From the IMG/VR virus record IMGVR_UViG_3300045988_158900: a stretch of DNA of 11,139 nt; one strand, given 5' to 3'. Shown piece after piece: positions 1 to 11,139 of this stretch; within the stretch, counting starts at the first letter, position 1, and every line of letters begins with the position of its first letter. The notes under the pieces are model-generated. The model ran no database searches. It was not told the DNA's origin and was given only the letters and a program-made list of their open reading frames with translations. The DNA comes from a virus. Both the position numbers and the translations under genes were made by a program.

Positions 1-3
1 AAT

Positions 4-45
4 TTATAATATAATATATATATAAGATGAAGAAAGGAAATGATA
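4..45 (+). promoter_or_regulatory. AT-rich promoter/5'UTR cassette (TTATAATATAATATATATATAAG...AAAGGAAA) upstream of ORF 50-1789. Any -35 would lie outside the window.
   Basis: Same cassette recurs at 1829-1860 and 3329-3360 (TATATAATAT(A/T)TATA...TAAG...AAAGGAAG). It contains TATAAT-like hexamers and an AAGGAA Shine-Dalgarno-like element 9-10 nt before the ATG at 50. Confidence 0.4.
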
Positions 46-49
46 CAAA

Positions 50-1789
50 ATGAATCTGTATGACGCCCTGACTACGGAAGATATTGACCTGATTCGTGCT
101 TACATTGAGGCATATGGCGGCAAGAATGATGAGTATGATGCAACTGGCTGTTGTGTTCAGTCTATGCCGAACACGATGGCGCCGTGGGCAGAGGCTAAGG
201 AGCGTCTTTATACGATGTTCGGTGAGCAGCTTGTTCTGAGGAAGTCCTTTAACTTCTCTAAGGGCGTCGATGAGTTGGCCGATGAAATCAATGATGCTCG
301 TTATCGCAGAGATGGCAACGGTATCTCTGAGATGGACACTTTGATTCGTGAAAATTTCTGGCCTCGGAATATTTATTCCGCTCTGGGTCTGGATGATGAC
401 CAGGCGGATAATATTACTCGTCTGGTTGACTCCTATATACTGGCTAATAATTCTTGGAGCCGCACTGAGTTCACTGTGAATGGCGTTCGTGTGAATACTG
501 GTGCTAAGGCTGTGAAGATTCTGGGTAAGATTCTCGCCACTTTTGAGAATCCTGAGTGGAACGAAATCTTTGAGCAGTTCCGTCTGGAACATTCTCGTAT
601 TCTCAATCAGAAGAAGCTGACCGGTGAACTGTGCCTGTCTATTCACCCTCTGGATTTTATGACAATGAGCGATAATAACGAGGGCTGGGACAGCTGTATG
701 AGCTGGCAGGCTTGCGGTGATTATCGTCAGGGCACCGTAGAGATGATGAACTCTCCTTGTGTCGTGGTGGCGTATCTGCGGAATCCTGACTATGAGATGG
801 ATATTCCCGACGGCCATTGGAACAGCAAGAAGTGGCGTTGTCTGTTTGTTGTTGACCGCGATGTTATTGTTAATATTCGTGAGTATCCCTATTGTAATGA
901 TGAACTGGTGGGCGAGTGCCTGAATTGGTTGAAGAGCCTGGCCGAGAAGAATCTCCATTACCAGTATCGTGATACTACCTGTCGATATCGCGCAGATCGC
1001 GAGAACACTGTTCAGGTTGGCGAGAAGAAAATTCCTGTGAATTTTTTTACTGGTCATATGTATAACGATTTCCGTTTTGAGCATCTGATGTATCTGAATG
1101 CCGCTCTGCCGGATAAGATTGACATTTATTACTCTGGTGTGAGTGAGTGCCTGGGTTGCGGTAAGACTTCCAGCGGCTATGATGAAAGCCTCCTGAGTTC
1201 TAATGATTTGATTTGTCATAGCTGTAATGGCGATGGCGAGTGCGAAGAGTGCGGTCGTTATTGCGATGCTGAGGAATTGTATGAGGTTGAGGGCCATTTG
1301 ATTTGTCAGGATTGCTATGATAACGAGACTGCTGAGTGCCCCGTTTGTCAGCGTGAGGTTGACCTCCACAATGAAAAGTGTGAGAATTGGCGCGACCAAT
1401 TACCTGACCCTGAGCGCCATTTCATCCGTAGCGATAATACATTTGAAATCGCGTTCAATAACTATATCACTCATCTCCACTTTGATACTCTGTGTGAGTG
1501 TTGTGCTAAGAAGATTCGTTCTGGCGAAATCAAGGATTACGGCCCCGTTGAGCAGTTTGTTGATAAGTGGAACATTTCTCATACTTATCTGGATTTGGAG
1601 AAGATGACTGAGGACGCTGTTCAGGACATTATTCCTTGGAATGATAAGGGCTGGATGGAGCACCGCAGAGACAATCCTAACCGCAGTTGGGTAAGTCTCA
1701 AAACAGGATATTGCGATTTTGATAAGGGTTATTTCATTGATGAAGAGGGGAACGAAATCGAAAATCCTCGCAAAATTTTCTTCTCCTAA
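50..1789 (+). CDS. Hypothetical protein (579 aa), paralog of ORF 4411-5874. It has a conserved HPLD/SC/WNSKKWRC/YPY core and a C-terminal zinc-ribbon-like region with multiple CxxC pairs.
   Basis: Long uninterrupted ORF with an ATG preceded by AAAGGAAA, ending in TAA. Shares blocks with ORF 4411-5874: SIHPLDFMTMSD vs SVHPLDYLSLSE, DSCMSW vs RSCHAL, WNSKKWRCLFVVD vs WNSKKWRCLGFLAD, REYPYCND vs GRPYPYEA. C-terminus: CLGCG...CHSCNGDGECEECGRYC...CQDC...CPVCQ...CECC. Family not recognised by me. Confidence 0.8.
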   Translation: MNLYDALTTEDIDLIRAYIEAYGGKNDEYDATGCCVQSMPNTMAPWAEAKERLYTMFGEQLVLRKSFNFSKGVDELADEINDARYRRDGNGISEMDTLIRENFWPRNIYSALGLDDDQADNITRLVDSYILANNSWSRTEFTVNGVRVNTGAKAVKILGKILATFENPEWNEIFEQFRLEHSRILNQKKLTGELCLSIHPLDFMTMSDNNEGWDSCMSWQACGDYRQGTVEMMNSPCVVVAYLRNPDYEMDIPDGHWNSKKWRCLFVVDRDVIVNIREYPYCNDELVGECLNWLKSLAEKNLHYQYRDTTCRYRADRENTVQVGEKKIPVNFFTGHMYNDFRFEHLMYLNAALPDKIDIYYSGVSECLGCGKTSSGYDESLLSSNDLICHSCNGDGECEECGRYCDAEELYEVEGHLICQDCYDNETAECPVCQREVDLHNEKCENWRDQLPDPERHFIRSDNTFEIAFNNYITHLHFDTLCECCAKKIRSGEIKDYGPVEQFVDKWNISHTYLDLEKMTEDAVQDIIPWNDKGWMEHRRDNPNRSWVSLKTGYCDFDKGYFIDEEGNEIENPRKIFFS

Positions 1790-1809
1790 CTGGTTCAATA
1801 TAAAGTATT

Positions 1810-1838
1810 TTGATTTTTTTAAAAAAAAATTATATAAT
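1810..1838 (+). promoter_or_regulatory. sigma70-like promoter: TTGATT (-35, 1810-1815), 17-nt spacer, TATAAT (-10, 1833-1838). It sits inside the conserved TTATATAATATATAT cassette (1829-1860).
   Basis: Hexamers read directly: 4/6 match at -35, 6/6 at -10, 17-bp spacer. Downstream GTAAGG-N10-CCTTAC small hairpin (1845-1866), then RBS AAAGAGG before the ATG at 1901. Confidence 0.45.
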
Positions 1839-1900
1839 ATATATGTAAGGTAAAGGAAGACCTTACAACAAAAATAAATTTTTGAAAGAGGTATACAAAT

Positions 1901-2308
1901 ATGAAGACTACCGATCGCACCACTAAGCGTGATTTTTATGAGGCTATTATCAAGGCTATGGAGACTGGCGAGACTGATGTCGAGCCCACCAAGATTATCG
2001 AGTTCTGTGAGAACGAGATTGCCCTGCTGGACAAGAAGGCCGATAAGGCTAAGGAGCGCGCCGCTGCTAAGAAGGCCGAGGCTGACGAGCTGATGGATAA
2101 GGTGTATGCCGTCCTGAGCGATACCGAGTTTATGACTCGTAATGCTGTGATGGATGCTCTGGGTGATATGCCTGAGGATGTGACCATCGCTAAGGTCGGC
2201 GCTCGCCTGACTAAGTTGGTCGGGGCTGAGAAGGTCGAGAAGGCTGAGCAGACCGTGGCTAATGCCGAGGGCAAGAAGTCCAAGGTTATGGGCTACCGCA
2301 AGATTTAA
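1901..2308 (+). CDS. Hypothetical small protein (135 aa), Glu/Lys/Ala-rich and probably helical.
   Basis: ATG with RBS GAAAGAGG 7 nt upstream; TAA stop; followed by a strong terminator. Composition KKADKAKERAAAKKAEADELMDKV. Net charge is about neutral (about 25 K/R vs about 27 D/E), so I do not call it histone-like. Confidence 0.75.
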   Translation: MKTTDRTTKRDFYEAIIKAMETGETDVEPTKIIEFCENEIALLDKKADKAKERAAAKKAEADELMDKVYAVLSDTEFMTRNAVMDALGDMPEDVTIAKVGARLTKLVGAEKVEKAEQTVANAEGKKSKVMGYRKI

Positions 2309-2328
2309 TCAAAATACTCTGATTCTTG

Positions 2329-2366
2329 AATGAGGTTAGGATTTAATTCCTAACCTCATTTTTCTA
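2329..2366 (+). terminator. Rho-independent terminator: perfect 13-bp stem AATGAGGTTAGGA / TCCTAACCTCATT with loop TTTAAT, followed by TTTTTCT.
   Basis: Inverted repeat 2329-2341 / 2348-2360 is exactly complementary. The T-run follows immediately. It lies 21 nt after the stop of ORF 1901-2308. Confidence 0.7.
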
Positions 2367-2447
2367 TGGGTCTGCTCCGGGCGAGGTCGGGGGCAAAGAC
2401 CGAAAACCCAAATCAAAATATGGCTTACTAATTTTTCAATCAATTTA

Positions 2448-2476
2448 TTGACATATATTAAAAAATATGCTATAAT
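2448..2476 (+). promoter_or_regulatory. Consensus sigma70 promoter: TTGACA (2448-2453), 17-nt spacer, TATAAT (2471-2476).
   Basis: Both hexamers 6/6 with optimal 17-bp spacing. RBS AAAAGGA 2485-2491. ATG at 2501. Confidence 0.6.
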
Positions 2477-2500
2477 AAAAACAAAAAAGGATTTATTATA

Positions 2501-3313
2501 ATGAGATATTGTTTGAAATATATAAAAAATCAATATATCCAAGAGGCTGATGAAATTCTATTCGCAGATAATCATGGTGATGATATGATTGACGCAATAG
2601 AACAATATCCTCACGCAGATTTTATTTATGAGGTTGTTGATGAGCCTGATTGGGATTATTTAAAAATGATTAATAGTAAATTAAATGAAACTGGTCGGCG
2701 ATTAATCATTTCTACTCTTTATTCTATAATTGCCCAAGAGGCAAAAGAAAATGGATTGGCGTTTTATTTTTCATTTGCGATTAACAATTTCGCAGATTTA
2801 CAAGCTGTGTGTGAATTAGGCGCTTGTTATGCGCTTATTACGGCTCCAATCTTTTTCGAGCAGGATAAATTGGAAAAATTTTCCATTCCACTTCGCTATC
2901 GTGCCAATGTCGCATATAGTGGTAATTTGACTACAAAACGCGTAAATGCGAATGCGGCGTTTATTCGTCCTGAGGATGTAGACCTTTATGATTATGATAC
3001 AACAACCATTGAGTTTGGCGCAACCCATACTGAACAAGAAGAGGTTTTATATCGTTTATATAAATATAATAAGTGTTGGCCGGGCGATTTGAATATGGTA
3101 ATTACAACTCTTAATGTCGTGCCCGCACCGATGAATCGAATGATTGGGCCAGACTTCGGCAAGCATAGATTGAACTGCGGCCAACGATGCGTAGAAGGCG
3201 ATACTCTTCAATGCCATTTGTGTTTTAATCAAATGACATTAGCAAATCCGTCAAAAATTAAGGATTATATAGACAATGTAATTTTACCAGTTAGACAAGA
3301 AAAGATAAATTGA
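2501..3313 (+). CDS. Hypothetical protein (270 aa) with a C-terminal Cys cluster (CGQRC...CHLC).
   Basis: Uninterrupted ORF. ATG preceded by a consensus promoter and AAGGA RBS. TGA stop. More AT-rich than its neighbours. No family recognised. Confidence 0.75.
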   Translation: MRYCLKYIKNQYIQEADEILFADNHGDDMIDAIEQYPHADFIYEVVDEPDWDYLKMINSKLNETGRRLIISTLYSIIAQEAKENGLAFYFSFAINNFADLQAVCELGACYALITAPIFFEQDKLEKFSIPLRYRANVAYSGNLTTKRVNANAAFIRPEDVDLYDYDTTTIEFGATHTEQEEVLYRLYKYNKCWPGDLNMVITTLNVVPAPMNRMIGPDFGKHRLNCGQRCVEGDTLQCHLCFNQMTLANPSKIKDYIDNVILPVRQEKIN

Positions 3314-3338
3314 CAATTTTATTTAAATATTATATAAT
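3310..3338 (+). promoter_or_regulatory. Consensus sigma70 promoter: TTGACA (3310-3315, overlapping the TGA stop of the upstream gene), 17-nt spacer, TATAAT (3333-3338). It is embedded in the conserved TATATAATAT...TAAG AAAGGAAG cassette (3329-3360).
   Basis: Hexamers 6/6 and 6/6, spacer 17. The RBS AAGGAAG inside the cassette lies 7 nt before the ATG at 3371. Confidence 0.6.
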
Positions 3339-3370
3339 ATTTATATAAAATAAGAAAGGAAGATTGATAG

Positions 3371-4411
3371 ATGCGAGTGATGAAAGACTCTGAGTATCTA
3401 GCATTTAAGCAGTTAGCCAAGCTTACTCAAGACCAAATGATTAGGGCTATGCGTGCGGTGTTAGAGGCTCGTTATACAGATATTATCGCAACAAAGGAAT
3501 ATATTGTAGCCAAGGGAGATATTCCTATCGGATTGGTTGCCCATATGGATACAGTGTTTCCGCTTCCTCCTACTGAAATTTATTATGATACTACACAGAA
3601 TGTTGTGTGGAGTCCGCAGGGTCTTGGAGCTGATGACCGCGCTGGTATATTCGCGATTCTTCAGATTCTGAAGACTACAAAATTGCGTCCGCATATTATT
3701 TTGACAACTGATGAAGAGAAGGGTGGATGGGGCGCGTACGCCCTTGTTGAACAGCATCCCGATTTTCCGTTTGGTGATTTGAAATATCTGATTCAGTTGG
3801 ACCGCCAGGGCGCGAATGATTGTGTGTTTTATGATGGTATCAATGAAGATTTTATTCGTTATGTATCTTCTTTTGGTTTCGTAGAGCATATTGGTTCATT
3901 CAGCGATATTAGTATTCTGTGTCCATTCTGGGATGTGTGCGGCGTCAATCTTTCTGTCGGTTATAAAAATGAGCATAGTCTCATTGAAACATTAAATATT
4001 AGCCATTTGTTCGATACCATCCAAAAGGTGAAGAGAATGTTGATGGTGAAGGAAATTCCTGATTTTGAGTGGAAGGAAAAATATTATCCTTATTTCACTA
4101 ATGGGTATCCTTTGGATGATGACATTGATGAATATAGCGCGGCTTATGGCTATAATTGGGTAAATGATAGACGTTCTGTTGATGCTTATACGGTAATTTG
4201 TCATAATTGTAAGAAGCCGTTTTATAATTATGAGACATTCCCCACTAAGAAAATCGATGGTGGAACTATGTTCTTGTGCCCCGATTGTGTGGGCGACCAT
4301 GCTAATTGGTGCGATTGTTGTGGCGAAGCATTTGAGCGCACACCGGAAAACGCCGGGGCCACTCTTTGCCCTGACTGTGCGAAAATTGAGAAGATTAAGG
4401 TTAAAGGTTAA
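3371..4411 (+). CDS. Metallopeptidase-like protein: a clan MH (M42/M20/M28-like) domain fused to a C-terminal four-CxxC zinc ribbon.
   Basis: Motifs in the order expected for co-catalytic zinc peptidases: VAHMDTV (H-x-D), GADDRAGIFAIL (DDRAG, as in M42/M20), TTDEEKGGWGA (the Glu-Glu pair). C-terminus: CHNCKK...CPDC...CDCC...CPDC. The TAA stop overlaps the next ATG (TAATG at 4409-4413). Confidence 0.55.
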   Translation: MRVMKDSEYLAFKQLAKLTQDQMIRAMRAVLEARYTDIIATKEYIVAKGDIPIGLVAHMDTVFPLPPTEIYYDTTQNVVWSPQGLGADDRAGIFAILQILKTTKLRPHIILTTDEEKGGWGAYALVEQHPDFPFGDLKYLIQLDRQGANDCVFYDGINEDFIRYVSSFGFVEHIGSFSDISILCPFWDVCGVNLSVGYKNEHSLIETLNISHLFDTIQKVKRMLMVKEIPDFEWKEKYYPYFTNGYPLDDDIDEYSAAYGYNWVNDRRSVDAYTVICHNCKKPFYNYETFPTKKIDGGTMFLCPDCVGDHANWCDCCGEAFERTPENAGATLCPDCAKIEKIKVKG

Positions 4412-5874
4412 TGAAGAGTTATAATTTAGATGAACTAAAGCAGCAAGTTAAACACGTATTAGAGTATAGTCAGGGTATTTATGATGTGAGTGAAGCCGCT
4501 CTTGATAATATGATGAATGAATGGGAGCGCAATAAAGCGCAATTCATTAATAATTTTATGGGCGGTAAACTCATTGTGGAACTGCCGGGCAAGCGCTTCT
4601 TCCATCTGGGAGAGAAGGCAAAACTCAAGAAATATAATGATTTCTTGGATTATGTTGCTCTGCGAATAAATAATTATGAGTTATGCCGATTTATCGAAAC
4701 GCAGGGTGAAGAAGGATTCTATGAGAATACCGTAAAAACTGGTTGGGACCATACTAAGAGTAATACATTTATTTCGCCGGGTTCTAAACTAATACGAGCA
4801 TTTAAATATTTTATTGAAGATAAGGATTTGCTGGAAACTGTTCAAAATGAGGCCAGTCGTATTATTCAAGGAGACTGTATTGAGGGCATTCTTTGTATAT
4901 CAGTCCATCCCCTTGATTACCTCAGCTTAAGCGAAACTACATATAACTGGCGTTCTTGCCACGCTCTTGATGGTGAATATCGCGCTGGTAATTTGAGTTA
5001 TTTGATGGATGGTAGTACATTTATCTGTTATTTAAGAGGCGATGATAAACAAAACCTCCCTTCATTTCCCGATGATTTACTCTGGAATAGTAAGAAGTGG
5101 CGTTGTTTGGGCTTCTTGGCTGATGATGAAAATGGTATCATTATGGGCCGTCCATATCCTTATGAAGCCGCAGATATTATTGATGAACTTCGTTGGGAAG
5201 TGTTTAATAGAGAATGGAATTTGGGCCTTGGTAGTTGGCGCGCAGACGCCATTCGTTCGGTTCAAGACCGCTTAACTAACTGGGATGAAGATTTAAGTCG
5301 TACTTATATCCCTTGGAATGGCCGTCTTGTAGAACTTGATAAAACTGTTCATGACTGTCCAAGTCCTACTCATTATAATGATATTCTTTTATCCAGTTGT
5401 TATTTGCCTATTTATGCTCGTGGTAAAGGATATTTTGGTAAGAATGATTGGAAGAAGGTTCAGTATCATATTGGACATTCAGTAATGTGTATCCATTGTA
5501 ATTCTGAGTATGTATCTCCTGGTGATGGCACAATGATGTGTCGTTCTTGTGAGATTAGATATGGCAATTCTGACAGTGATAATATTGTTTATTGTGAGAA
5601 TTGCGGTTGTCGTTTATGGTATGAAGATGCAATTGTTGTTGGAGATAATGGAAATTATCTTTGTAGTGAGTGCGCCAGTAGAATCACCAAAACTTGTAGA
5701 GATTGCGGTAATCCATATTACATTGATGATTTAACATATCACAAAGACGATGAAGATGAAAACGGCGGATATTATCTGTGTGGATGGTGCGAACAAGATA
5801 GACAGGACACGGAAGAAATCGCAGAAAATGAATCTTCTACTACTACCATCAGTTTTGATGAATTTGATCTGTAG
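4411..5874 (+). CDS. Hypothetical protein (487 aa), paralog of ORF 50-1789, with a C-terminal multi-CxxC zinc-ribbon region.
   Basis: Start codon overlaps the upstream stop, suggesting translational coupling. Shares the HPLD / SC / WNSKKWRC / YPY core with ORF 50-1789. C-terminus: CIHCN...CRSCE...CENCGC...CSECA...CRDCG...CGWCE. It ends at TAG, the only TAG terminator in the window (see findings). Confidence 0.8.
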   Translation: MKSYNLDELKQQVKHVLEYSQGIYDVSEAALDNMMNEWERNKAQFINNFMGGKLIVELPGKRFFHLGEKAKLKKYNDFLDYVALRINNYELCRFIETQGEEGFYENTVKTGWDHTKSNTFISPGSKLIRAFKYFIEDKDLLETVQNEASRIIQGDCIEGILCISVHPLDYLSLSETTYNWRSCHALDGEYRAGNLSYLMDGSTFICYLRGDDKQNLPSFPDDLLWNSKKWRCLGFLADDENGIIMGRPYPYEAADIIDELRWEVFNREWNLGLGSWRADAIRSVQDRLTNWDEDLSRTYIPWNGRLVELDKTVHDCPSPTHYNDILLSSCYLPIYARGKGYFGKNDWKKVQYHIGHSVMCIHCNSEYVSPGDGTMMCRSCEIRYGNSDSDNIVYCENCGCRLWYEDAIVVGDNGNYLCSECASRITKTCRDCGNPYYIDDLTYHKDDEDENGGYYLCGWCEQDRQDTEEIAENESSTTTISFDEFDL

Positions 5875-5992
5875 TCATTAAATACAAGACCTATATATTA
5901 TATACACGATGAAAATGGCGAATGGATACCTATTACGCGAGTGCGTCAAATACCTCCGCCAGAACGTGAGTAATTATTTAAATATTTAAGGA

Positions 5993-6292
5993 GTGATTAT
6001 TATAGCACGCGGAAGTATTGCTAAGGAAAATGTCGCTAAAGTGCTTGCTGAGTCATTCGGTAAGGACTGGATTGGCGAGTCTGATAAGAAGTATTATGTT
6101 TGGGCTAATGATGGCGGTGAACGCGTTCAAATCGCTATTAGTCTGACCTGCCCAAAGAATCCAGTAGGAGCAGCAGTATCTCCTACAAGCAATGAAATCA
6201 ATTTTGAGGCTGAGCCTGAGAGACCTGTAATGGAGATTACTCCTGATGAACAGGAAATGATTGAGAGACTTAAGGCTGAATTGAATCTTTAA
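5993..6292 (+). CDS. Possible small hypothetical protein (99 aa). The start is uncertain: GTG at 5993 overlaps the AAGGAG RBS, and the true start may be a downstream non-ATG codon.
   Basis: Open frame with moderate GC and coding-like composition, followed by a hairpin terminator. There is no in-frame ATG near the RBS. Confidence 0.4.
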   Translation: MIIIARGSIAKENVAKVLAESFGKDWIGESDKKYYVWANDGGERVQIAISLTCPKNPVGAAVSPTSNEINFEAEPERPVMEITPDEQEMIERLKAELNL

Positions 6293-6297
6293 TATAA

Positions 6298-6331
6298 TGA
6301 GATAAGTCATTTGACTTATCTCATTTTTTTT
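6298..6331 (+). terminator. Rho-independent terminator: 12-bp inverted repeat TGAGATAAGTCA / TGACTTATCTCA followed by an 8-T run.
   Basis: Arms 6298-6309 and 6312-6323 are exact reverse complements. T-run 6324-6331. Overlaps the -35 of the next promoter. Confidence 0.6.
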
Positions 6332-6339
6332 GTTATAAT
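6311..6339 (+). promoter_or_regulatory. sigma70 promoter with extended -10: TTGACT (6311-6316), 17-nt spacer, TGtTATAAT (TG 6331-6332, TATAAT 6334-6339). Probable promoter of the TAG-recoded operon.
   Basis: Hexamers 5/6 and 6/6, spacer 17, TGn extension. RBS AAGGAG 6359-6364. ATG at 6372. Confidence 0.55.
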
Positions 6340-6371: not shown

Positions 6372-7073
6372 ATGTATAATCAAATTATTGAAGAATTAGA
6401 AGCTCTTAAATAGCATTTTGATGATGAAGATATTGTATCATATCAATTACTCTTAATTAAAATTAAGAAAATTATTGATTTAATTAATGATAAACAACTT
6501 GAGGAAGCAGATAAAAGCAAATTATCTAATTATATTCGAGATTATTTAGCAAATTTGCATTTAAATAGAATTTTCACAATTTCTGATTTGAATGAATTAT
6601 TTATTCCAGAAGTGAAAGATTTAGATATTGGTAATAAAAATATTTATATTACAATTTTTAATTTATTCGTGGAAGAATTATCTGATGTAGATAACATTTT
6701 TTCTCAAAAACTTAAATATTGTATTACAAATATGATTTCTAGAATTGCTACTTCTGTAGATGAAGCAATGGCCGTAGAAGATAAAACTCAAGAAACTGCA
6801 GTTAATGAACCTGTTCAAATTATTCCAACTATAAATACAGTAAATACTAATTCATTCGATTTGGATATTGATATTACTAATAAAAATTATTTGAAAGAAT
6901 ATATTATGCGTAAAAATTTAAAACCTTATCGATGTGATATTTGTGGATTAAGTTCTTGGCAAAACAATCCTCTTATGCTATATTTATACAGTAAAAATCA
7001 TATTTATTCAAATAAAAATTTAGAAAATTTGATGTTTTTATGCCCTAATTGCTATTCTCAGATTGGAGAGTAA
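6372..7073 (+). CDS. HNH (His-Me finger)-like endonuclease, 233 codons, with one in-frame TAG (6411-6413) read as sense.
   Basis: ATG 7 nt after AGGAG. Frame open to TAA except for the single TAG. C-terminal motif CDIC...NHIYSNKNLENLMFLCPNCY matches the C-x2-C...HI...N...NL..LC-x2-C HNH pattern. Confidence 0.65.
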
Positions 7074-7076
7074 TTT

Positions 7077-8264
7077 ATGTATTATAATTCTTATAATTAG
7101 AATTATTTTAATGAATTAAATAAAATATTCAATAAATTTGATACTAATAATATTAATGATTATTATAATTTATTAAAATTAATATATGATATATATTTTA
7201 ATGAAAATGTATTTATAATTGTTAATGATGATATAAAATATCAATTAGAATCAAATTTAAAATTACTTATTAAAAAAAATAATTGGTTTATAGATTTTGA
7301 ACAAACTGAAAAAAATATATTAATTTCATTATTTATTATAATTACTTAGAAAATTAATTTTGGAAATTATTATCAAATTAATAATACATTAAAACAATAG
7401 ATTGAATCATTATTATTAGATAAAAATTTAATTAATGAAAAAATGATTCATGATAGTAAAAATGTTTTTCATTTAGTTGATAGTTTTCCTGAAAATGAAA
7501 GTATGATTAAATTTTTTAAGCAATATAATATTGATATTATGAATTAGGAATTTTTAACTATTGGTGATACGAAAATTCCTAATTTTTATTTAAAACAAAA
7601 AAATAAAATGATAGATCATTATTATGAATTTTGCCATTTATTATTTAAAATTTATAGTCCAATCTTATATTATGGTGTTTCATTTGAAGAAGGATATGAA
7701 TATAAAATAACTAATAAAGATATTGTATTTGATTGTGGTGGAAATATGGGACTATTCGCGCTATACTGCGCTTCAAAAGGCGCGCGAGTATATTGTTTTG
7801 AGCCTATGTCTTATATTAGAGATTTTTTATATGAAAGTCAAAAATTATATCCTGATTTAATCCATATTATTCCTTGCGGAGTGTCTAATAGAAATTAGGA
7901 ACAATATTTTTCTCAAACCTATAATCCAGGAGCTGGATCGAATTCAATATTTCATGAATTAGAATATACATCTGATAGATTATATAAAGAAAAATGTAAA
8001 TTAATTACATTAGATTCATTTAGTTAGAATAATCATATTGTTCCTACATTTATTAAAGCAGATATTGAAGGGTCTGAAGCACAAATGCTTGAAGGCGCTT
8101 CACAAATTTTACAAACATATAAACCAACTATGAATATTTGTTTAAATCATCGGACGGAAGACCAATATAATATTCCTACCCTTATTTATAATATCAATTC
8201 TAATTATTCATTTTATTATTTTATTGAAGGAGAAATACATTCTAAATTTGTATTGTGTAAATAA
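7077..8264 (+). CDS. FkbM-family SAM-dependent methyltransferase (C-terminal about 220 aa) with an N/I/K/Y-rich low-complexity N-terminal extension of about 177 aa. Six in-frame TAG sense codons (7098, 7347, 7398, 7545, 7896, 8025). The methyltransferase domain could alternatively start at the ATG at 7608.
   Basis: RBS GGAGAG 8 nt before the ATG at 7077. In a stretch of about 85% AT the frame carries no TAA/TGA for 396 codons, which is very unlikely by chance. Motifs DCGGNMGLFALYCASKGARVYCFEP (FkbM DxGANxG...FEP) and FIKADIEGSEAQMLEGASQIL (FkbM IDxLKIDxEGxE). TAA stop. Confidence 0.65.
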
Positions 8265-8266
8265 AT

Positions 8267-9220
8267 ATGCCAAATATTATTTTAACAGAATATTGTAATC
8301 TTCAATGTCCTTACTGTTTTGCTAGTAAAATGATTGAAGAAAAAACAGATGATACTAAAAATATTTCTCTTGAATAGTTAGATATGATTTTAAAATGGTT
8401 ATTACCTTCAGCAACGAATTTAGATCGGATTGGATTAATTGGAGGAGAACCTACTTTACATCCTTAGTTTAGAGAGATATTAGGTAGAATAAATTCATTT
8501 AATGAATTTACAAATACTTCTTCAATAGTATTTACGAATGGAATTAATTTAAGTGAATTTTTATCTGCTATTGGACCAAATATGTCAATTTTAATTAATG
8601 TAAATGAATTGACTGGTAAATCATTAAATAAACTTAATAGTGTATTAGATGAAATTAATTATTTAAGTTGGTTTAAAATTGATAAAGTTATTTTAGGATG
8701 TAATTTATACCAAAATGAAAATGATTATTCTTATTTTTGGAATGTAGTTGATAAATATCCAGATATTTTAAGAATAAGAATGTCTATTACTGCACCCAAT
8801 AGCAAAGAATTAAGAGCAAATAAAGAATTGTATTATACTATTATGAAACCTATATTATTACAATTTTTAGAAGAAACTAAAAAACGTGATATAAAAATTT
8901 CATATGACTGTAATTAGATTCCGTTATGTTTATTAAACAATGAAGAATAGGATTTAATAAATCAATTAGGGGAATTAAATAGTTTTTGTGAGCCCGTTAT
9001 AGATATTACTCCAGATTTTAAAGCTACTTGCTGTTTTGGTGTTTATGATAATCCCATTCAATGTAATGATTTTAATAATATCGAAGAATTAACTAGATAT
9101 TTTAAAAATCAAATAGTAATAAAAACTATAAATAATAACACTTCCATGTGCAAAGATTGTAAAAAATTACAACTTGCTCAATGTCAAGGAGGATGTTTAT
9201 CATTTTCTAATGTTGGGTAA
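8267..9220 (+). CDS. Radical SAM enzyme with a C-terminal SPASM/twitch-type Cys cluster, a RiPP-maturase-like protein of 317 codons. Four in-frame TAG sense codons (8375, 8465, 8915, 8948).
   Basis: N-terminal CNLQCPYC (CX3CX2C) at residues 10-17. GLIGGEPTL glycine-rich SAM motif. C-terminal CEP...TCCFG...QCND...SMCKDCKKLQLAQCQGGC. No TAA/TGA in frame until the TAA at 9218. Start is 2 nt after the upstream stop. Confidence 0.85.
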
Positions 9221-9278
9221 GTATAAGTAATAAAGTTTTATAATTTTTTAATTCTAAAAAAGAAGGAGGAATTTTTTT

Positions 9279-9716
9279 ATGGCAAATATTACTTATGAAT
9301 TAATTTTTAAATTTACTTCTGGTAAAGAGGTAAATTTTATTGATGAAGAACATATATTTTCTATTGTAGAAGATTATCGTTCTCCAGTTCTTTTAACCCC
9401 TCAAATGTTTGGTATTGATGATTTACGTGAGTATTATGCATTATTATTAATTGATGGCAAACCTATGGAAGATTATGCATCAAATTATTGTAATTTTAAA
9501 AATTTTGGTAATTCTATTGTTGATTTGCTTAATAATGAAGATACTATTTCAGAAATTATTTTAAGAGATACTAATACTAAAGGAGAATATTTCCATATAA
9601 ACTCTGATCAATTAGTAGGTATTGAAGCCGGCGGAGGAACTGATAGAGGTTTTGATAATATAATGGTATATCGCATACAAATTTATTATAAAAAAGTTGG
9701 AAAAATAGGTGAGTAA
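9279..9716 (+). CDS. Hypothetical protein (145 aa) between the radical-SAM gene and the precursor-like gene. Possible accessory or leader-recognition partner.
   Basis: Strong RBS AAGGAGGA 8 nt upstream of the ATG. No internal stop codons. TAA stop 2 nt before the next ATG. No family recognised. Confidence 0.75.
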   Translation: MANITYELIFKFTSGKEVNFIDEEHIFSIVEDYRSPVLLTPQMFGIDDLREYYALLLIDGKPMEDYASNYCNFKNFGNSIVDLLNNEDTISEIILRDTNTKGEYFHINSDQLVGIEAGGGTDRGFDNIMVYRIQIYYKKVGKIGE

Positions 9717-9718
9717 TA

Positions 9719-10339
9719 ATGGGAGCTAATGCTACATCTGTAGGTACTTTAGTTAAATTATCTGATTTAGATGCATTATATTTACGTTTATATAATTTAA
9801 AAGTAGCCCATATTAATGATGCAGATTAGATTAATAAATCTGCTCTAACGGTTCCAGCTCAAAGTAGTGGATTGACACGAGGTAGTAAAGTAGGAGTTTC
9901 AACTGCTAAAATTGCAACATTAAAATCTGAATTGGCAAATTTAGCTCAATCAAAATGGTATCAATCTAACACAGCAAATACTGTAGTAACAATGACAGAT
10001 TTTAGTACAAATATTAAAGTACCTAATGTAGGAGATTTATTAAAAAGTGTAGATTTTAATCTAATTGAAACTGCAATCACTTCTGCAGAATAGATTATTC
10101 CTGCTTATTCCAATAAATATAATATTCGTTATAGTGGTCGTTATTATGGACATTATAGTGATTGTTATAGTGATTGTTATAGTGCTCGATATGGTACTTG
10201 TTATAGTAATTGTTATGGAGGCCGTTATAGTGCCCGATATGGCACTTGTTACAGTTGTTATGGCTGTTATGGTTGTTATCGCAGATATAGCTCAAGGTAT
10301 GGTAGATATGCTGCAAAAAATGTTCAAATTAGATGTTAA
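9719..10339 (+). CDS. Candidate RiPP precursor-like protein (206 codons). Leader domain of about 124 aa. TAG sense codons at 9827 and at the leader/core junction (10091). About 82-aa C-terminal core is a tandem [Y-(S/G)-x-(C/R)] array (9 Cys, about 20 Tyr).
   Basis: ATG with AGGTGA RBS. Core reads IIPAYSNKYNIRYSGRYYGHYSDCYSDCYSARYGTCYSNCYGGRYSARYGTCYSCYGCYGCYRRYSSRYGRYAAKNVQIRC, then TAA. The core has no internal Met, so it can only be made by reading through the TAG from the leader. Flanked on both sides by radical-SAM genes. Confidence 0.7.
10130..10279 (+). repeat. Degenerate tandem repeat with 12-nt (4-codon) periodicity, for example AGTGATTGTTAT x2, CGATATGGTACTTGTTATAG / CGATATGGCACTTGTTACAG. 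Collapses to 9-nt units (GGCTGTTAT GGTTGTTAT) near the 3' end.
   Basis: Read directly; encodes the Y-S/G-x-C/R peptide repeats. The periodicity leaves all three plus frames and some minus frames open. That explains the spurious ORFs 10065-10364 (+) and 10095-10316 (-). Confidence 0.8.
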
Positions 10340-10350
10340 AGGTGAATTAA

Positions 10351-11139
10351 ATGTTAATAAATAAATTAGATTTAATGGGATCCAGCAGCTGTGATTTAAA
10401 ATGTTCTTATTGTTATATTACAAAAAATTGTTCATTTTATAATTATGATTCCGCCGTTCAAGAAGCTTGGGAAACTGGATCTTATTTAACTACTATTAAA
10501 CAAGTTTTTTCGAAATTGGATGCAGACCCTACTCAAATAAAAGATTTAGAATTTTGGGGAGGAGAACCTACATTACATATTAAAGAAATGGCTTCTCAGG
10601 GAAAAGCATTAGGATAGTTATTTCCAGAAGTTGATTTTGTATTAATCCCAACTAATTGGTATTAGATTAATATGCAAGCCTTAGTAGATTTTATTTACAA
10701 TTTTAATGATGGTATCTCTCCTCGTGGAAGTAAATCAAAAAATGTTAATTTTCATTTACAATTATCCATTGATGGACCTCCTGGAGATTTTAATACTTAT
10801 GGTCATAAAGTACCTTGGGATACTTATAAAAAACAATTTGATGATTTTTGTTTTTATTTAAAAGAAAAAGAAAATTCTGGAAGAGAATTAAAAAATATTA
10901 ATATTATTTTCGCTATTAGTGGAACCTCTTAGCAAAAATATATTTTAAAAAATTTAAATACTTTAGATAAAATAAAAGAATTTCAAGAATATATTAAAAA
11001 AGTTTGTAAATATGTAAATGATGAACTAAAACAATTTAAAACTATAGATATATTTTTAGGAACTCCAATTTGGACTCCTACAGTAGCTATTCCAGATTCG
11101 ACAACCACGGAAGAAGCATTAGAATTAAATAAAATTGCA
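10351..11139 (+). CDS. Second radical SAM enzyme, 5' partial (continues past the window end), paralogous at its N-terminus to ORF 8267-9220. Three in-frame TAG sense codons (10615, 10663, 10930).
   Basis: RBS AAAGGTGA. CDLKCSYC (CX3CX2C) at residues 14-21. FWGGEPTL motif. Frame open to the window end with no TAA/TGA. Confidence 0.8.

What the first reader, a model, noticed from the sequence alone, without database searches (positions are those of the whole stretch)
6372..11139. TAG (amber) reassigned to a sense codon throughout the downstream module
Sixteen in-frame TAGs fall in five of the six CDSs that carry clear domain signatures (HNH, FkbM, two radical-SAMs, precursor). Four of them interrupt the radical-SAM gene 8267-9220 between the CX3CX2C, the GGEPTL motif and the SPASM Cys cluster, which must be one polypeptide. 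In this 75-85% AT DNA, random frames would hit TAA about every 15 codons, yet the frames stay open for 230-400 codons through the TAGs. All five complete genes terminate with TAA. Amber-to-Gln (or other) recoding is known in a few phage lineages and is usually confined to late genes.
Basis: seen in the sequence. Interest (0 to 1): 0.8.

Follow-up and report, generated by a model that had tools for sequence, protein, structure and literature searches.

The report
Amber codon read as glutamine
A gene cluster in a roughly 195-kb human-gut phage uses the stop codon TAG as a glutamine codon, read by a phage-encoded suppressor tRNA; this is a real but already known kind of phage recoding, here confined to very AT-rich, swappable accessory gene cassettes.

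Summary
Sixteen in-frame TAGs lie in five of the six tiled + strand genes at 6372-11139. There are no internal TAA or TGA codons (about 102 and 53 expected from off-frame rates), and all five complete genes end in TAA.

- Pfam domains span the TAGs, and 441 full-length homologues of the 317-aa radical-SAM protein exist.
- The same sequence occurs in at least two gut samples, and the source collection had already called these genes with TAG translated as Q.
- TAG swaps with CAA/CAG in 97%-identical relatives. An invariant Gln column is TAG in one homologue's DNA. Gln is the best fit over 50 TAG sites.
- Six close relatives carry a canonical tRNA(CUA) with its own consensus promoter. One of them holds a module 97% identical to this one. 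The tRNA sits in a 28-tRNA array that lacks only tRNA-Gln.

This is the known phage "code 15" with block structure, so it is a new member of a known kind.

Extras:
- In about 60 kb examined, TAG occurs only in genes with GC3 of about 0.1. Neighbouring genes (GC3 0.25-0.67) have none, except TAGs that look like true stops.
- The TAG-rich module is a promoter-anchored cassette. A sister phage carries a different YcaO/radical-SAM cassette at the same site.

The parts
1..6292 (+). TAG-free ('dual-coded') block: g1 50-1789, g2 1901-2308, g3 2501-3313, g4 3371-4411, g5 4411-5874, g6 about 5993-6292. GC3 is 0.28-0.67, the genes use CAG, AAG and CTG, and the stops are TAA or TGA.
   Evidence: about 1,950 codons with no internal TAG (CAG 28, CAA 22). 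Consensus sigma-70-like promoters lie at 2448-2476 and 3310-3338 (12/12) and at 1810-1838.
5872..5973 (+). TAG at the end of g5, followed by 32 sense codons in frame and then a TAA. It is probably the true stop of g5, with a C-terminal extension whenever the suppressor is active.
   Evidence: the TAG is kept in L006 and L008. Against L008 there are 8 synonymous and 2 non-synonymous changes before the TAG, but 2 and 3 after it. Distant orthologues align only up to residue about 462. A second case lies just upstream of the window: L004:3963-4160 has a TAG 7 codons before its TAA, inside the next gene's ribosome-binding site.
6296..6325 (+). Intrinsic terminator-like hairpin (13-bp stem plus a T run) that closes the upstream unit.
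6311..6339 (+). Sigma-70-like promoter of the module (TTGACT, 17-nt spacer, TATAAT, with an upstream TG). It is the left anchor of the swappable cassette.
   Evidence: 11/12 matches; identity with sister phage L008 runs through the TATAAT at 6339 and is lost within about 10 bases after it.
6372..7073 (+). g7, 233 aa, with a C-terminal HNH endonuclease domain; 1 TAG (6411).
   Evidence: phrog_10822 and phrog_14736, HNH endonuclease, E = 3e-15; TAG kept in a second sample.
7077..8264 (+). g8, 395 aa, FkbM-type methyltransferase; 6 TAGs.
   Evidence: PF05050, 38.7 bits, residues 219-363, spanning TAG codons 274 and 317; the exact TAG-to-Q translation is in the public collection, whereas a standard-code call from JGI gives only a 96-aa fragment.
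8267..9220 (+). g9, 317 aa, radical-SAM enzyme with a C-terminal Cys cluster (SPASM/twitch-like); 4 TAGs.
   Evidence: 441 homologues at E <= 0.001, the 120 listed near full length. TAG columns 37 and 67 are CAA in homologue DNA.
9279..9716 (+). g10, 145 aa, unknown function; no TAG.
   Evidence: no family hit.
9719..10339 (+). g11, 206 aa: a conserved N-terminal domain of about 130 aa followed by a C-terminal tail with Tyr at every fourth residue, rich in Cys, Ser, Arg and Gly. It looks like a precursor or substrate protein. 2 TAGs.
   Evidence: alignment with relatives; the Y-x-x-x periodicity is kept while the residues between vary. (89.5% nucleotide identity to L007, against about 97% for its neighbours).
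10351..11139 (+). g12, the first 263 codons of a 478-aa radical-SAM protein (it continues to L001:12509); 3 TAGs in the window and 6 in all.

Best explanation
The window comes from a roughly 195-kb human-gut phage in which TAG is decoded as glutamine.

Shown:
- The six genes at 6372-11139, and seven more downstream, are intact genes that contain 1-12 in-frame TAGs each.
- TAA and TGA are the only terminators.
- Codon swaps between relatives and homologue alignments identify the residue as Gln.
- Close relatives carry a canonical tRNA with anticodon CUA, behind its own consensus sigma-70 promoter, in a 28-tRNA array. One of these relatives holds a 97%-identical copy of this module. In that contig the tRNA lies about 19 kb downstream of the position corresponding to the window's end.

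Inferred:
- This tRNA is charged with Gln by the host machinery and out-competes release factor 1. The TAG-containing genes therefore yield full-length protein only in cells where the phage tRNA is expressed.
- The genome is block-coded. The roughly 40%-GC genes contain no internal TAG and read the same in either code. TAG is frequent only in the roughly 20-25%-GC genes.
- TAG abundance in the low-GC genes is most simply the result of AT-biased mutation in a TAG=Gln background. CAG decays to CAA or to TAG, and TAG cannot move on to TAA.
- The absence of TAG from the CAG-rich genes implies selection for translatability before the suppressor acts.

The module itself is a separate, promoter-anchored accessory cassette. 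It holds an HNH endonuclease, an FkbM methyltransferase, three radical-SAM enzymes plus a protein with a SPASM-like domain, GT8-like glycosyltransferases and a Tyr/Cys-repeat protein. Sister phages carry different cassettes at the same site.
For: Intact genes:
- The ORFs tile the region only if TAG is sense.
- Pfam domains cross the TAGs.
- g9 has 441 homologues, the 120 listed near full length.
- The collection's own gene calls are 233, 395, 317, 145, 206 and 478 aa, with TAG translated as Q.

Not an error:
- Assemblies are identical or 99.96% identical, from at least two samples.
- There are 132 conserved TAG:TAG pairs in 97%-identical relatives.

Gln:
- TAG aligns with CAA in 13 pairwise comparisons and with CAG in 1, between near relatives. 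After allowing for redundancy and an internal duplication, that is about 4 independent sites. Two independent sites show a non-Gln partner codon.
- The BLOSUM62 sum over 50 TAG sites against divergent orthologues is Q +26.8, K +9.7, E +7.5.
- The window's TAG columns 37 and 67 of g9 are CAA in P0018 and P0039. Column 67 is also CAA in P0043, a homologue without any TAG.
- A column that is Gln in 120 of 120 homologues (the CQGGC motif) is TAG in the DNA of P0044.

Suppressor:
- tRNA(CUA) sits at a conserved array position in all six close relatives.
- It is a canonical tRNA by Rfam (55 bits, full model).
- It has U1.U72 unpaired and G73.
- The array covers every amino acid except Gln.
- A 12/12 consensus promoter lies 84 nt upstream of it.
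- Contig IMGVR_UViG_3300045988_140174 holds both the module (L007; 96.7% identity to window 8330-11139) and the tRNA (L026:10595-10668).

Block pattern:
- Genes with GC3 of 0.20 or less carry 0-2.5 TAGs per 100 codons. Long ORFs with GC3 of 0.25 or more carry none, except terminal-looking TAGs.
- In the module CAG, AAG and CTG are nearly extinct (2, 2 and 0), while TAG occurs 16 times.

Cassette.
Against: - The suppressor tRNA was not seen on the window's own 194,444-bp scaffold. The stretch I could reach ends about 10 kb short of its expected position.
- There is no protein-level evidence.
- The tRNA's closest sequence matches among local tRNAs are weak and mixed (Asn, Met, Trp, Gln). Its 2:71 and 3:70 pairs are C:G, unlike E. 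coli tRNA-Gln (my knowledge of GlnRS identity elements). Its charging identity is therefore inferred from alignments, not from the tRNA.
- At g9 column 217, the five homologues annotated under the standard code have His where the recoded phages have TAG.
- Two near-relative swaps are TAG to AAC or ACT.
- No release-factor gene was found.
- Structural and lysis genes of this phage were not located. Whether TAG use follows expression timing or gene history is open.
Confidence: 0.87

Rival explanations
1. TAG is sense but encodes a residue other than Gln, such as Lys, Glu, Tyr, His or pyrrolysine.
For: - ARAGORN labels the tRNA 'Pyl' purely because of its CUA anticodon.
- Lys and Glu are the runners-up in the substitution score.
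- His occupies g9 column 217 in standard-code homologues.
- A distant relative (L021) has a 91-nt tRNA(CUA) with a long variable arm, so other identities exist in the wider group.
Against: - Q beats K by 17 half-bits over 50 sites.
- TAG swaps with CAA, a two-base change, far more often than with any single-step neighbour.
- An invariant Gln column is encoded by TAG.
- The tRNA is a standard cloverleaf with GG in the D loop and TTCGAAT in the T loop. From my knowledge, tRNA-Pyl does not look like this.
- No Pyl genes appeared in the roughly 60 kb examined, though there was no dedicated search.
Confidence: 0.06
2. TAG gating is the function. The TAG codons are kept by selection, so that this cassette is translated only after the phage's tRNA array, including tRNA(CUA), has accumulated. 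This is the regulatory late-gene model.
For: - Zero internal TAG in roughly 100 or more Gln codons of the CAG-rich neighbouring genes, against 25-50% of Gln codons in the low-GC genes.
- The model is proposed for other recoded phages (bioRxiv 10.1101/2021.08.26.457843; 10.1101/2022.06.29.495998).
- The module has its own host-type promoter, so any control would have to act at translation.
Against: - The suppressor tRNA also has a perfect host-type promoter, so a delay is not evident.
- The module's genes are not recognisable late genes.
- g10 and several other low-GC genes have no TAG.
- TAG enrichment is what AT-biased mutation alone predicts in a TAG=Gln background (inference).
Confidence: 0.35
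3. The TAGs are real stops. The region is then a set of decaying pseudogene fragments, or short ORFs that restart after each TAG.
For: Under the standard code, JGI annotations of relatives do produce fragments of 42-96 aa.
Against: - No TAA or TGA in 1,559 internal codons, against 155 expected.
- Domains are continuous across the TAGs.
- TAG positions are conserved under purifying selection.
- Hundreds of full-length homologues exist, including one without any TAG (P0043).
Confidence: 0.02
4. Artefact: a systematic sequencing error, or a chimeric assembly that joins a 40%-GC phage to a 22%-GC recoded one.
For: There is an abrupt GC drop at about 6300.
Against: - The same junction occurs in ENA, Logan and IMG/VR assemblies from at least two samples.
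- High-GC and low-GC genes alternate repeatedly along one contig.
- A sister phage keeps both flanks with a different low-GC cassette between them.
Confidence: 0.01

Closest known systems
TAG-to-Gln ('genetic code 15') recoding in gut phages: crAss-like phages and the Lak, Jade, Sapphire, Agate, Garnet, Amethyst and Topaz clades (Borges et al., bioRxiv 10.1101/2021.08.26.457843; proteomic proof in Peters et al. 2022, PMC9523058)
   Same: - In-frame TAG in intact genes.
- Gln inferred from alignments.
- A phage-encoded Sup-CTA tRNA.
- A low-GC background.
- Recoded genes grouped in modules spread along a large genome.
- Gut origin and a genome of about 195-200 kb, close to the mean sizes that paper lists for its large-genome clades.
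   Different: - The recoded module seen here is an accessory biosynthetic cassette, not a structural or lysis module.
- No release factor or aminoacyl-tRNA synthetase was found nearby.
- Membership of any named clade was not tested, because no reference sequences were available to me.
Block-wise 'multiple genetic codes' and dual-coded early blocks (Mgcod; bioRxiv 10.1101/2022.06.29.495998)
   Same: - One block (1-6292) translates almost identically in code 11 and code 15, and the adjacent block needs code 15.
- A Sup-CTA tRNA is present, as in 225 of their 303 genomes.
   Different: - There, the code switch usually coincides with a switch of coding strand. Here every gene is on one strand.
- Here the switch coincides with a terminator-promoter pair, a twofold drop in GC and a cassette boundary.
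- Here the blocks are small and interleaved (islands of 1-12 kb).
Amber suppressor tRNAs derived from tRNA-Gln (E. coli supE type)
   Same: A CUA anticodon on a tRNA with U1, an unpaired 1:72 position and G73, features compatible with Gln identity (my knowledge).
   Different: - The 2:71 and 3:70 pairs are C:G, not G:C.
- The charging enzyme and the host are unknown.
- It is encoded by a phage as a regular member of a near-complete tRNA set.

Membership tests
Phage stop-codon recoding, TAG to Gln (code 15) | Many in-frame TAGs inside otherwise intact, conserved protein genes | tested here: met
   16 TAGs in 5 genes of the window and 47 more in the 7 genes downstream. Domains and full-length homologues span them.
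Phage stop-codon recoding, TAG to Gln (code 15) | TAA and TGA stay excluded from reading frames and serve as the terminators | tested here: met
   No internal TAA or TGA, against 102 and 53 expected. All five complete genes end in TAA.
Phage stop-codon recoding, TAG to Gln (code 15) | TAG positions correspond to Gln in homologues | tested here: met
   TAG swaps with CAA or CAG. Q is the best fit by BLOSUM sum. An invariant-Gln column is encoded by TAG, and the window's TAG columns are CAA in homologue DNA.
Phage stop-codon recoding, TAG to Gln (code 15) | Phage-encoded suppressor tRNA with anticodon CUA | tested here: inconclusive
   Present in all six close relatives, including the contig that carries a 97%-identical module. 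It could not be read on the window's own scaffold, because the reachable DNA stops about 10 kb short.
Phage stop-codon recoding, TAG to Gln (code 15) | Uneven use: a subset of genes avoids the recoded codon and stays translatable in the standard code | tested here: met
   no internal TAG in long ORFs with GC3 of 0.25 or more. TAGs at 5872 and L004:4134 sit where stop codons would.
Phage stop-codon recoding, TAG to Gln (code 15) | Recoded genes are the late structural and lysis genes | tested here: inconclusive
   The recoded genes seen are HNH, FkbM, radical-SAM and GT8 genes plus a repeat protein. No structural or lysis genes were found in the roughly 60 kb examined.
Phage stop-codon recoding, TAG to Gln (code 15) | Gln found at TAG positions in peptides | not testable with these tools
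   Needs metaproteomics, as in PMC9523058.
Phage stop-codon recoding, TAG to Gln (code 15) | Accessory code-change genes (RF2, aminoacyl-tRNA synthetase); optional, found in only some clades | tested here: not met
   A degenerate scan for GAGGQHVN over all IMG/VR contigs gave 11 hits, none on this lineage's contigs. The scan would miss a divergent motif, or a Gln written as TAG.
Pyrrolysine decoding of TAG | Atypical tRNA-Pyl architecture and pylS/pylBCD genes | tested here: not met
   The tRNA matches the general tRNA model end to end at 55 bits, with normal D and T loops. No pyl-like genes appeared among the annotated neighbours, though there was no dedicated search.
RiPP-like biosynthetic gene cluster (function of the module) | A precursor peptide plus dedicated maturases assigned to a defined RiPP class | tested here: inconclusive
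   Radical-SAM cores and one SPASM-like domain hit only generic models, far below the NCBIfam cut-offs. g11 has a Y-x-x-x repeat tail. The sister cassette has a YcaO protein at 83.9 bits. No class could be assigned.

The most novel reading that the evidence does not exclude
The ultra-AT-rich, TAG-laden gene sets are a distinct pool of mobile accessory cassettes. These include RiPP-like radical-SAM or YcaO clusters and homing-endonuclease genes. They move between suppressor-carrying phages into fixed, promoter-anchored sites. They are 'code-locked': because of their many TAG codons they can be expressed only in a cell where a phage tRNA(CUA) is active. On this reading, recoding works as a containment or compatibility barrier for horizontally exchanged cargo, rather than, or in addition to, a timer for late genes.
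Probability: 0.25. Interest if true: 0.6.

Novelty: new member of a known kind. Interest (0 to 1): 0.35.

Why it matters
Practically, any annotation of this phage with the standard code shatters 13 or more genes into fragments. JGI calls of relatives give 42-96-aa pieces, which hides a radical-SAM, methyltransferase and glycosyltransferase cluster. So the code has to be set correctly.

Biologically, the case adds a clean example in which the code-15-only genes are not virion or lysis genes. They are small, compositionally distinct, exchangeable accessory islands, sitting beside a near-complete phage tRNA set. This bears on why phages recode: timing of late genes, passive AT-driven drift, or compatibility of mobile cargo. 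The recoding itself would not surprise a specialist.

Tried and rejected
- Megablast of the whole window against GenBank phages found nothing. A tblastn search with g4 found only distant matches (at most 39% identity) in Enterococcus, Bacillus and Cellulophaga phages. No annotated reference genome was therefore available.
- Assigning the suppressor's amino acid from tRNA sequence similarity was inconclusive. The best non-self scores were low and spread over Asn, Met, Trp and Gln.
- A first all-against-all tally of residues opposite TAG was noisy, because it included spurious ORFs and redundancy. I replaced it with a per-site analysis restricted to the module's genes.
- To reach the suppressor on the window's own scaffold, I searched homologues of the gene next to it. 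The representative looked up sits on a more distant 176-kb relative instead.
The cluster look-up served instead.
- The release-factor motif scan was negative for this lineage.
- NCBIfam gave no specific subfamily for any radical-SAM protein.
- The minimum-free-energy fold of the tRNA alone does not give a cloverleaf (z = -1.4). The covariance-model match is the relevant test.
- I considered and rejected pseudogenes, chimeric assembly, sequencing error and pyrrolysine (see the rival explanations).

Full report

Yes. With all three stop codons, the + strand of 6372-11139 holds only scattered ORFs. With TAA and TGA as the only stops, it resolves into six abutting genes:
- g7, 6372-7073
- g8, 7077-8264
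- g9, 8267-9220
- g10, 9279-9716
- g11, 9719-10339
- g12, 10351 to beyond the window's end

They hold 1, 6, 4, 0, 2 and 3 in-frame TAGs, which makes 16. All five complete genes end in TAA.

In 1,564 codons there is no internal TAA or TGA. The off-frame rates of the same DNA predict 102 and 53 (P = 3e-45 and 1e-23). TAG occurs 16 times. ORFs of at least 140 codons cover 98.8% of the region if TAG is sense and 33% if it is not. In 1,000 shuffles the longest ORF never exceeded 164 codons, against 396 observed.

The Pfam Radical_SAM and FkbM matches run straight across TAG codons.

**2. Source, and exclusion of artefacts**

The window is part of a 194,444-bp scaffold from a human-gut metagenome. 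It is identical in two other assemblies, probably of the same sample. It is 99.96% identical in contigs from a second sample, with every covered TAG kept.

The public collection's own gene calls for these contigs are 233, 395, 317, 145, 206 and 478 aa. That means TAG was read through. The exact TAG-to-Q translations of g8 and g9 are in the collection, in clusters of 107 and 125 variants seen on dozens of contigs. A standard-code JGI call from a relative yields only a 96-aa fragment.

IMG/VR holds six close relatives of 128-198 kb. Against those that share this module, there are 132 conserved TAG:TAG codon pairs at about 97% nucleotide identity.

g9 has 441 homologues at E <= 0.001. The 120 listed are 312-450 aa, nearly all 312-335 aa, and cover 99-100% of the query, so g9 is one polypeptide.

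**3. Which amino acid?**

Three independent lines point to Gln.

(a) Between near relatives, the codon that replaces TAG is overwhelmingly CAA. That is a two-base change and is not expected unless the two codons are synonymous. CAA appears in 13 pairwise comparisons and CAG in 1. After allowing for redundancy and an internal duplication, this is about 4 independent sites. Two independent sites show a non-Gln partner (AAC, ACT).

(b) I compared 50 TAG sites in the module with sense codons in divergent orthologues. The BLOSUM62 sum is Q +26.8, K +9.7, E +7.5, and negative for every other residue.

(c) In the g9 family I read the DNA of four homologues:
- The window's TAG columns 37 and 67 are CAA in P0018 and P0039.
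- Column 67 is also CAA in P0043, a homologue with no TAG at all.
- A column that is Gln in 120 of 120 homologues (the CQGGC motif) is written TAG in P0044.

One column disagrees. At column 217, standard-code homologues have His.

**4. The decoder**

The window has no tRNA. About 7 kb past its end a tRNA array begins. In all six close relatives the array has 27-28 tRNAs, and at a fixed position it includes a 74-nt tRNA with anticodon CUA.
- It matches the general tRNA covariance model end to end (55 bits; gathering threshold 29). It has normal D and T loops, an unpaired U1.U72 and G73. It is therefore not a tRNA-Pyl, despite ARAGORN's label.
- A perfect TTGACA-17-TATAAT promoter lies 84 nt upstream.
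- The array supplies every amino acid except Gln. This fits the CUA tRNA being its Gln member, but similarity to other tRNAs does not settle its identity.
- Contig IMGVR_UViG_3300045988_140174 carries both the module (96.7% identical to window 8330-11139) and this tRNA, about 19 kb further on.

I could not read that far on the window's own scaffold. A degenerate scan for the release-factor motif GAGGQHVN hit 11 IMG/VR contigs, none of this lineage.

**5. Pattern along the genome**

I examined about 60 kb (L004, L001, L026, L069). Genes fall into two compositional classes:
- Genes with GC3 of 0.25-0.67 prefer CAG, AAG and CTG and contain no internal TAG. This class includes all of window 1-6292.
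- Genes with GC3 of 0.07-0.20 have almost no CAG, AAG or CTG, yet carry 0-2.5 TAGs per 100 codons. In them, TAG makes up a quarter to a half of all Gln codons.

The only TAGs in the first class look like true stops:
- Window 5872 ends g5, 33 codons before a TAA. Constraint appears weaker after the TAG.
- L004:4134 lies 7 codons before a TAA, inside the next gene's Shine-Dalgarno sequence.

This is the 'dual-coded block next to a code-15 block' arrangement described by the Mgcod authors (10.1101/2022.06.29.495998). It also matches the modular use of recoding reported for large gut phages (10.1101/2021.08.26.457843). Here, though, there is no strand switch, and the boundary is a sharp compositional one.

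My reading (inference) is as follows. In a TAG=Gln background, AT-biased mutation drives CAG to either CAA or TAG. TAG is then trapped, because TAG-to-TAA is lethal. That explains why TAG is abundant exactly where G-ending codons are otherwise purged. The complete absence of TAG from the CAG-rich genes argues that those genes must be translatable without the suppressor.

**6. What the module is**

A strong terminator (6296-6325) and an 11/12 promoter with an extended -10 element (6311-6339) precede g7. The unit runs 12.4 kb to L001:18834. Its genes are:
- an HNH endonuclease (g7)
- an FkbM methyltransferase (g8)
- a radical-SAM enzyme with a Cys-rich C-terminus (g9)
- an unknown 145-aa protein (g10)
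- a 206-aa protein whose tail has Tyr at every fourth residue and is rich in Cys, Ser and Arg (g11)
- two more radical-SAM proteins and a protein with a SPASM-like domain
- GT8-like glycosyltransferases

. No radical-SAM protein reaches any specific NCBIfam cut-off.

In the sister phage L008 both flanks are 95-97% identical, but the interior is a different low-GC, TAG-containing cassette. It holds a YcaO protein (83.9 bits), three radical-SAM proteins and a Ser-rich tail protein. Identity ends just after the promoter's -10 element.

The locus is thus a promoter-anchored slot for exchangeable, RiPP-like accessory cassettes. That functional label is an inference.

**7. Comparison with what is known, and verdict**

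Every defining feature of phage TAG-to-Gln recoding that I could test is met. Two were not fully settled: the suppressor on this very scaffold, which was reached only in relatives, and the association with late genes. Protein-level proof is outside these tools.

The phenomenon is established. It was predicted in 2014 and later, surveyed by Borges et al., and shown by proteomics in PMC9523058. Current gene callers already handle it, as this collection's calls show.

I therefore rate the finding as correct but a new member of a known kind, of moderate interest. The points worth a follow-up are the strict coupling of TAG use to ultra-low-GC, exchangeable accessory islands, and the apparent retention of TAG as a stop in the other genes.

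Noticed in passing
window 5993-6292: A 97-codon ORF (g6, GC 0.43) that the public gene calls omit is clearly coding. All 11 differences from sister phage L008 fall on third codon positions. It has no ATG start. The candidates after the AAGGAG at 5987-5992 are GTG 5993, ATT 5996 or 5999, and ATA 6002.
   Followed up: partly
window 5872-5973; L004:3963-4160: In the TAG-free gene class, two genes have a single TAG where a stop is expected. One is followed by a 33-codon extension to a TAA, the other by a 7-codon extension, and the second TAG lies inside the next gene's ribosome-binding site. These genes would gain C-terminal extensions once the suppressor is active.
   Followed up: partly
window 50-1789 and 4411-5874: g1 and g5 are paralogues. 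Both match phrog_18912 (unknown function) and share motifs such as S(I/V)HPLD and NSKKWRCL. Both end in several CxxC zinc-ribbon-like repeats. g4 (3371-4411) is an M28/M20-like peptidase that also has a CxxC-rich tail.
   Followed up: partly
L008:632-9771 versus window 6352 to L001:18825: A sister phage has a different low-GC, TAG-containing cassette between the same flanks. It holds YcaO, three radical-SAM proteins and a Ser-rich tail protein. The left breakpoint is just after the promoter's -10 element, and the right one is at the stop of the last cassette gene, just before tRNA-Trp. L009 and L012 differ again.
   Followed up: partly
window 9719-10339 (g11): The C-terminal 70 residues form a (Y-x-x-x)n repeat. 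The same periodicity, with different intervening residues, appears in a 45%-identical relative (L050/L052). The gene diverges faster than its neighbours (89.5% against about 97% identity to L007). It may be a substrate for the neighbouring radical-SAM enzymes.
   Followed up: partly
L004:5681-6574 (just upstream of the window; ends at L001:666): An isolated low-GC gene (GC3 0.16, 4 TAGs) sits inside the high-GC block. It has four repeats of a G(R/K)RFGRL...CxCDCG...SCGCL motif and a C-terminal part that looks endonuclease-like to me, though I ran no family search on it. Together with the HNH gene g7, this suggests that the low-GC islands include mobile endonuclease genes.
   Followed up: no
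L025/L026/L007 tRNA array (e.g. L025:149-14098): The array has 28 tRNAs covering all amino acids except Gln. It is biased to U34 anticodons (UAA, UAU, UCU, UUU, UCC and others) that read the A-ending codons favoured by the low-GC genes. It includes an unusual tRNA-Phe(AAA). Low-GC, TAG-containing radical-SAM/SPASM gene pairs are inserted between the tRNAs (L026:6037-7852 and 12206-16081).
   Followed up: partly
L001:16240-16672 and 18114-18546: An internal duplication (87-93% identity across relatives) covers the GT8-like segment shared by the 513-aa and 241-aa genes of the module.
   Followed up: no
L069:10620-14813: Two large TAG-free genes use CAG only, with no CAA. One is 509 aa with DUF2828 and DUF7788. 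The other is 830 aa, with major-vault-protein shoulder and repeat domains (PF11978 at 78.5 bits, PF17795). That is an unexpected domain for a phage.
   Followed up: no
L031:14942-15091; L021:7354-7723 and 10979-11069: More distant relatives differ in their code-change equipment. A 402-kb contig has two adjacent, dissimilar tRNA(CUA) genes plus tRNA-Gln(UUG) and tRNA-Gln(CUG). Another contig has a 91-nt tRNA(CUA) with a long variable arm, and a tmRNA gene.
   Followed up: no
window 1810-1838, 2448-2476, 3310-3338, 6311-6339; L026:10483-10511: Near-perfect TTGACA-17-TATAAT promoters, set in a recurring AAAAAATAT..TATAATATAT context, precede both TAG-free genes and the TAG-rich module. They also precede individual tRNAs, including the suppressor.
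   Followed up: partly
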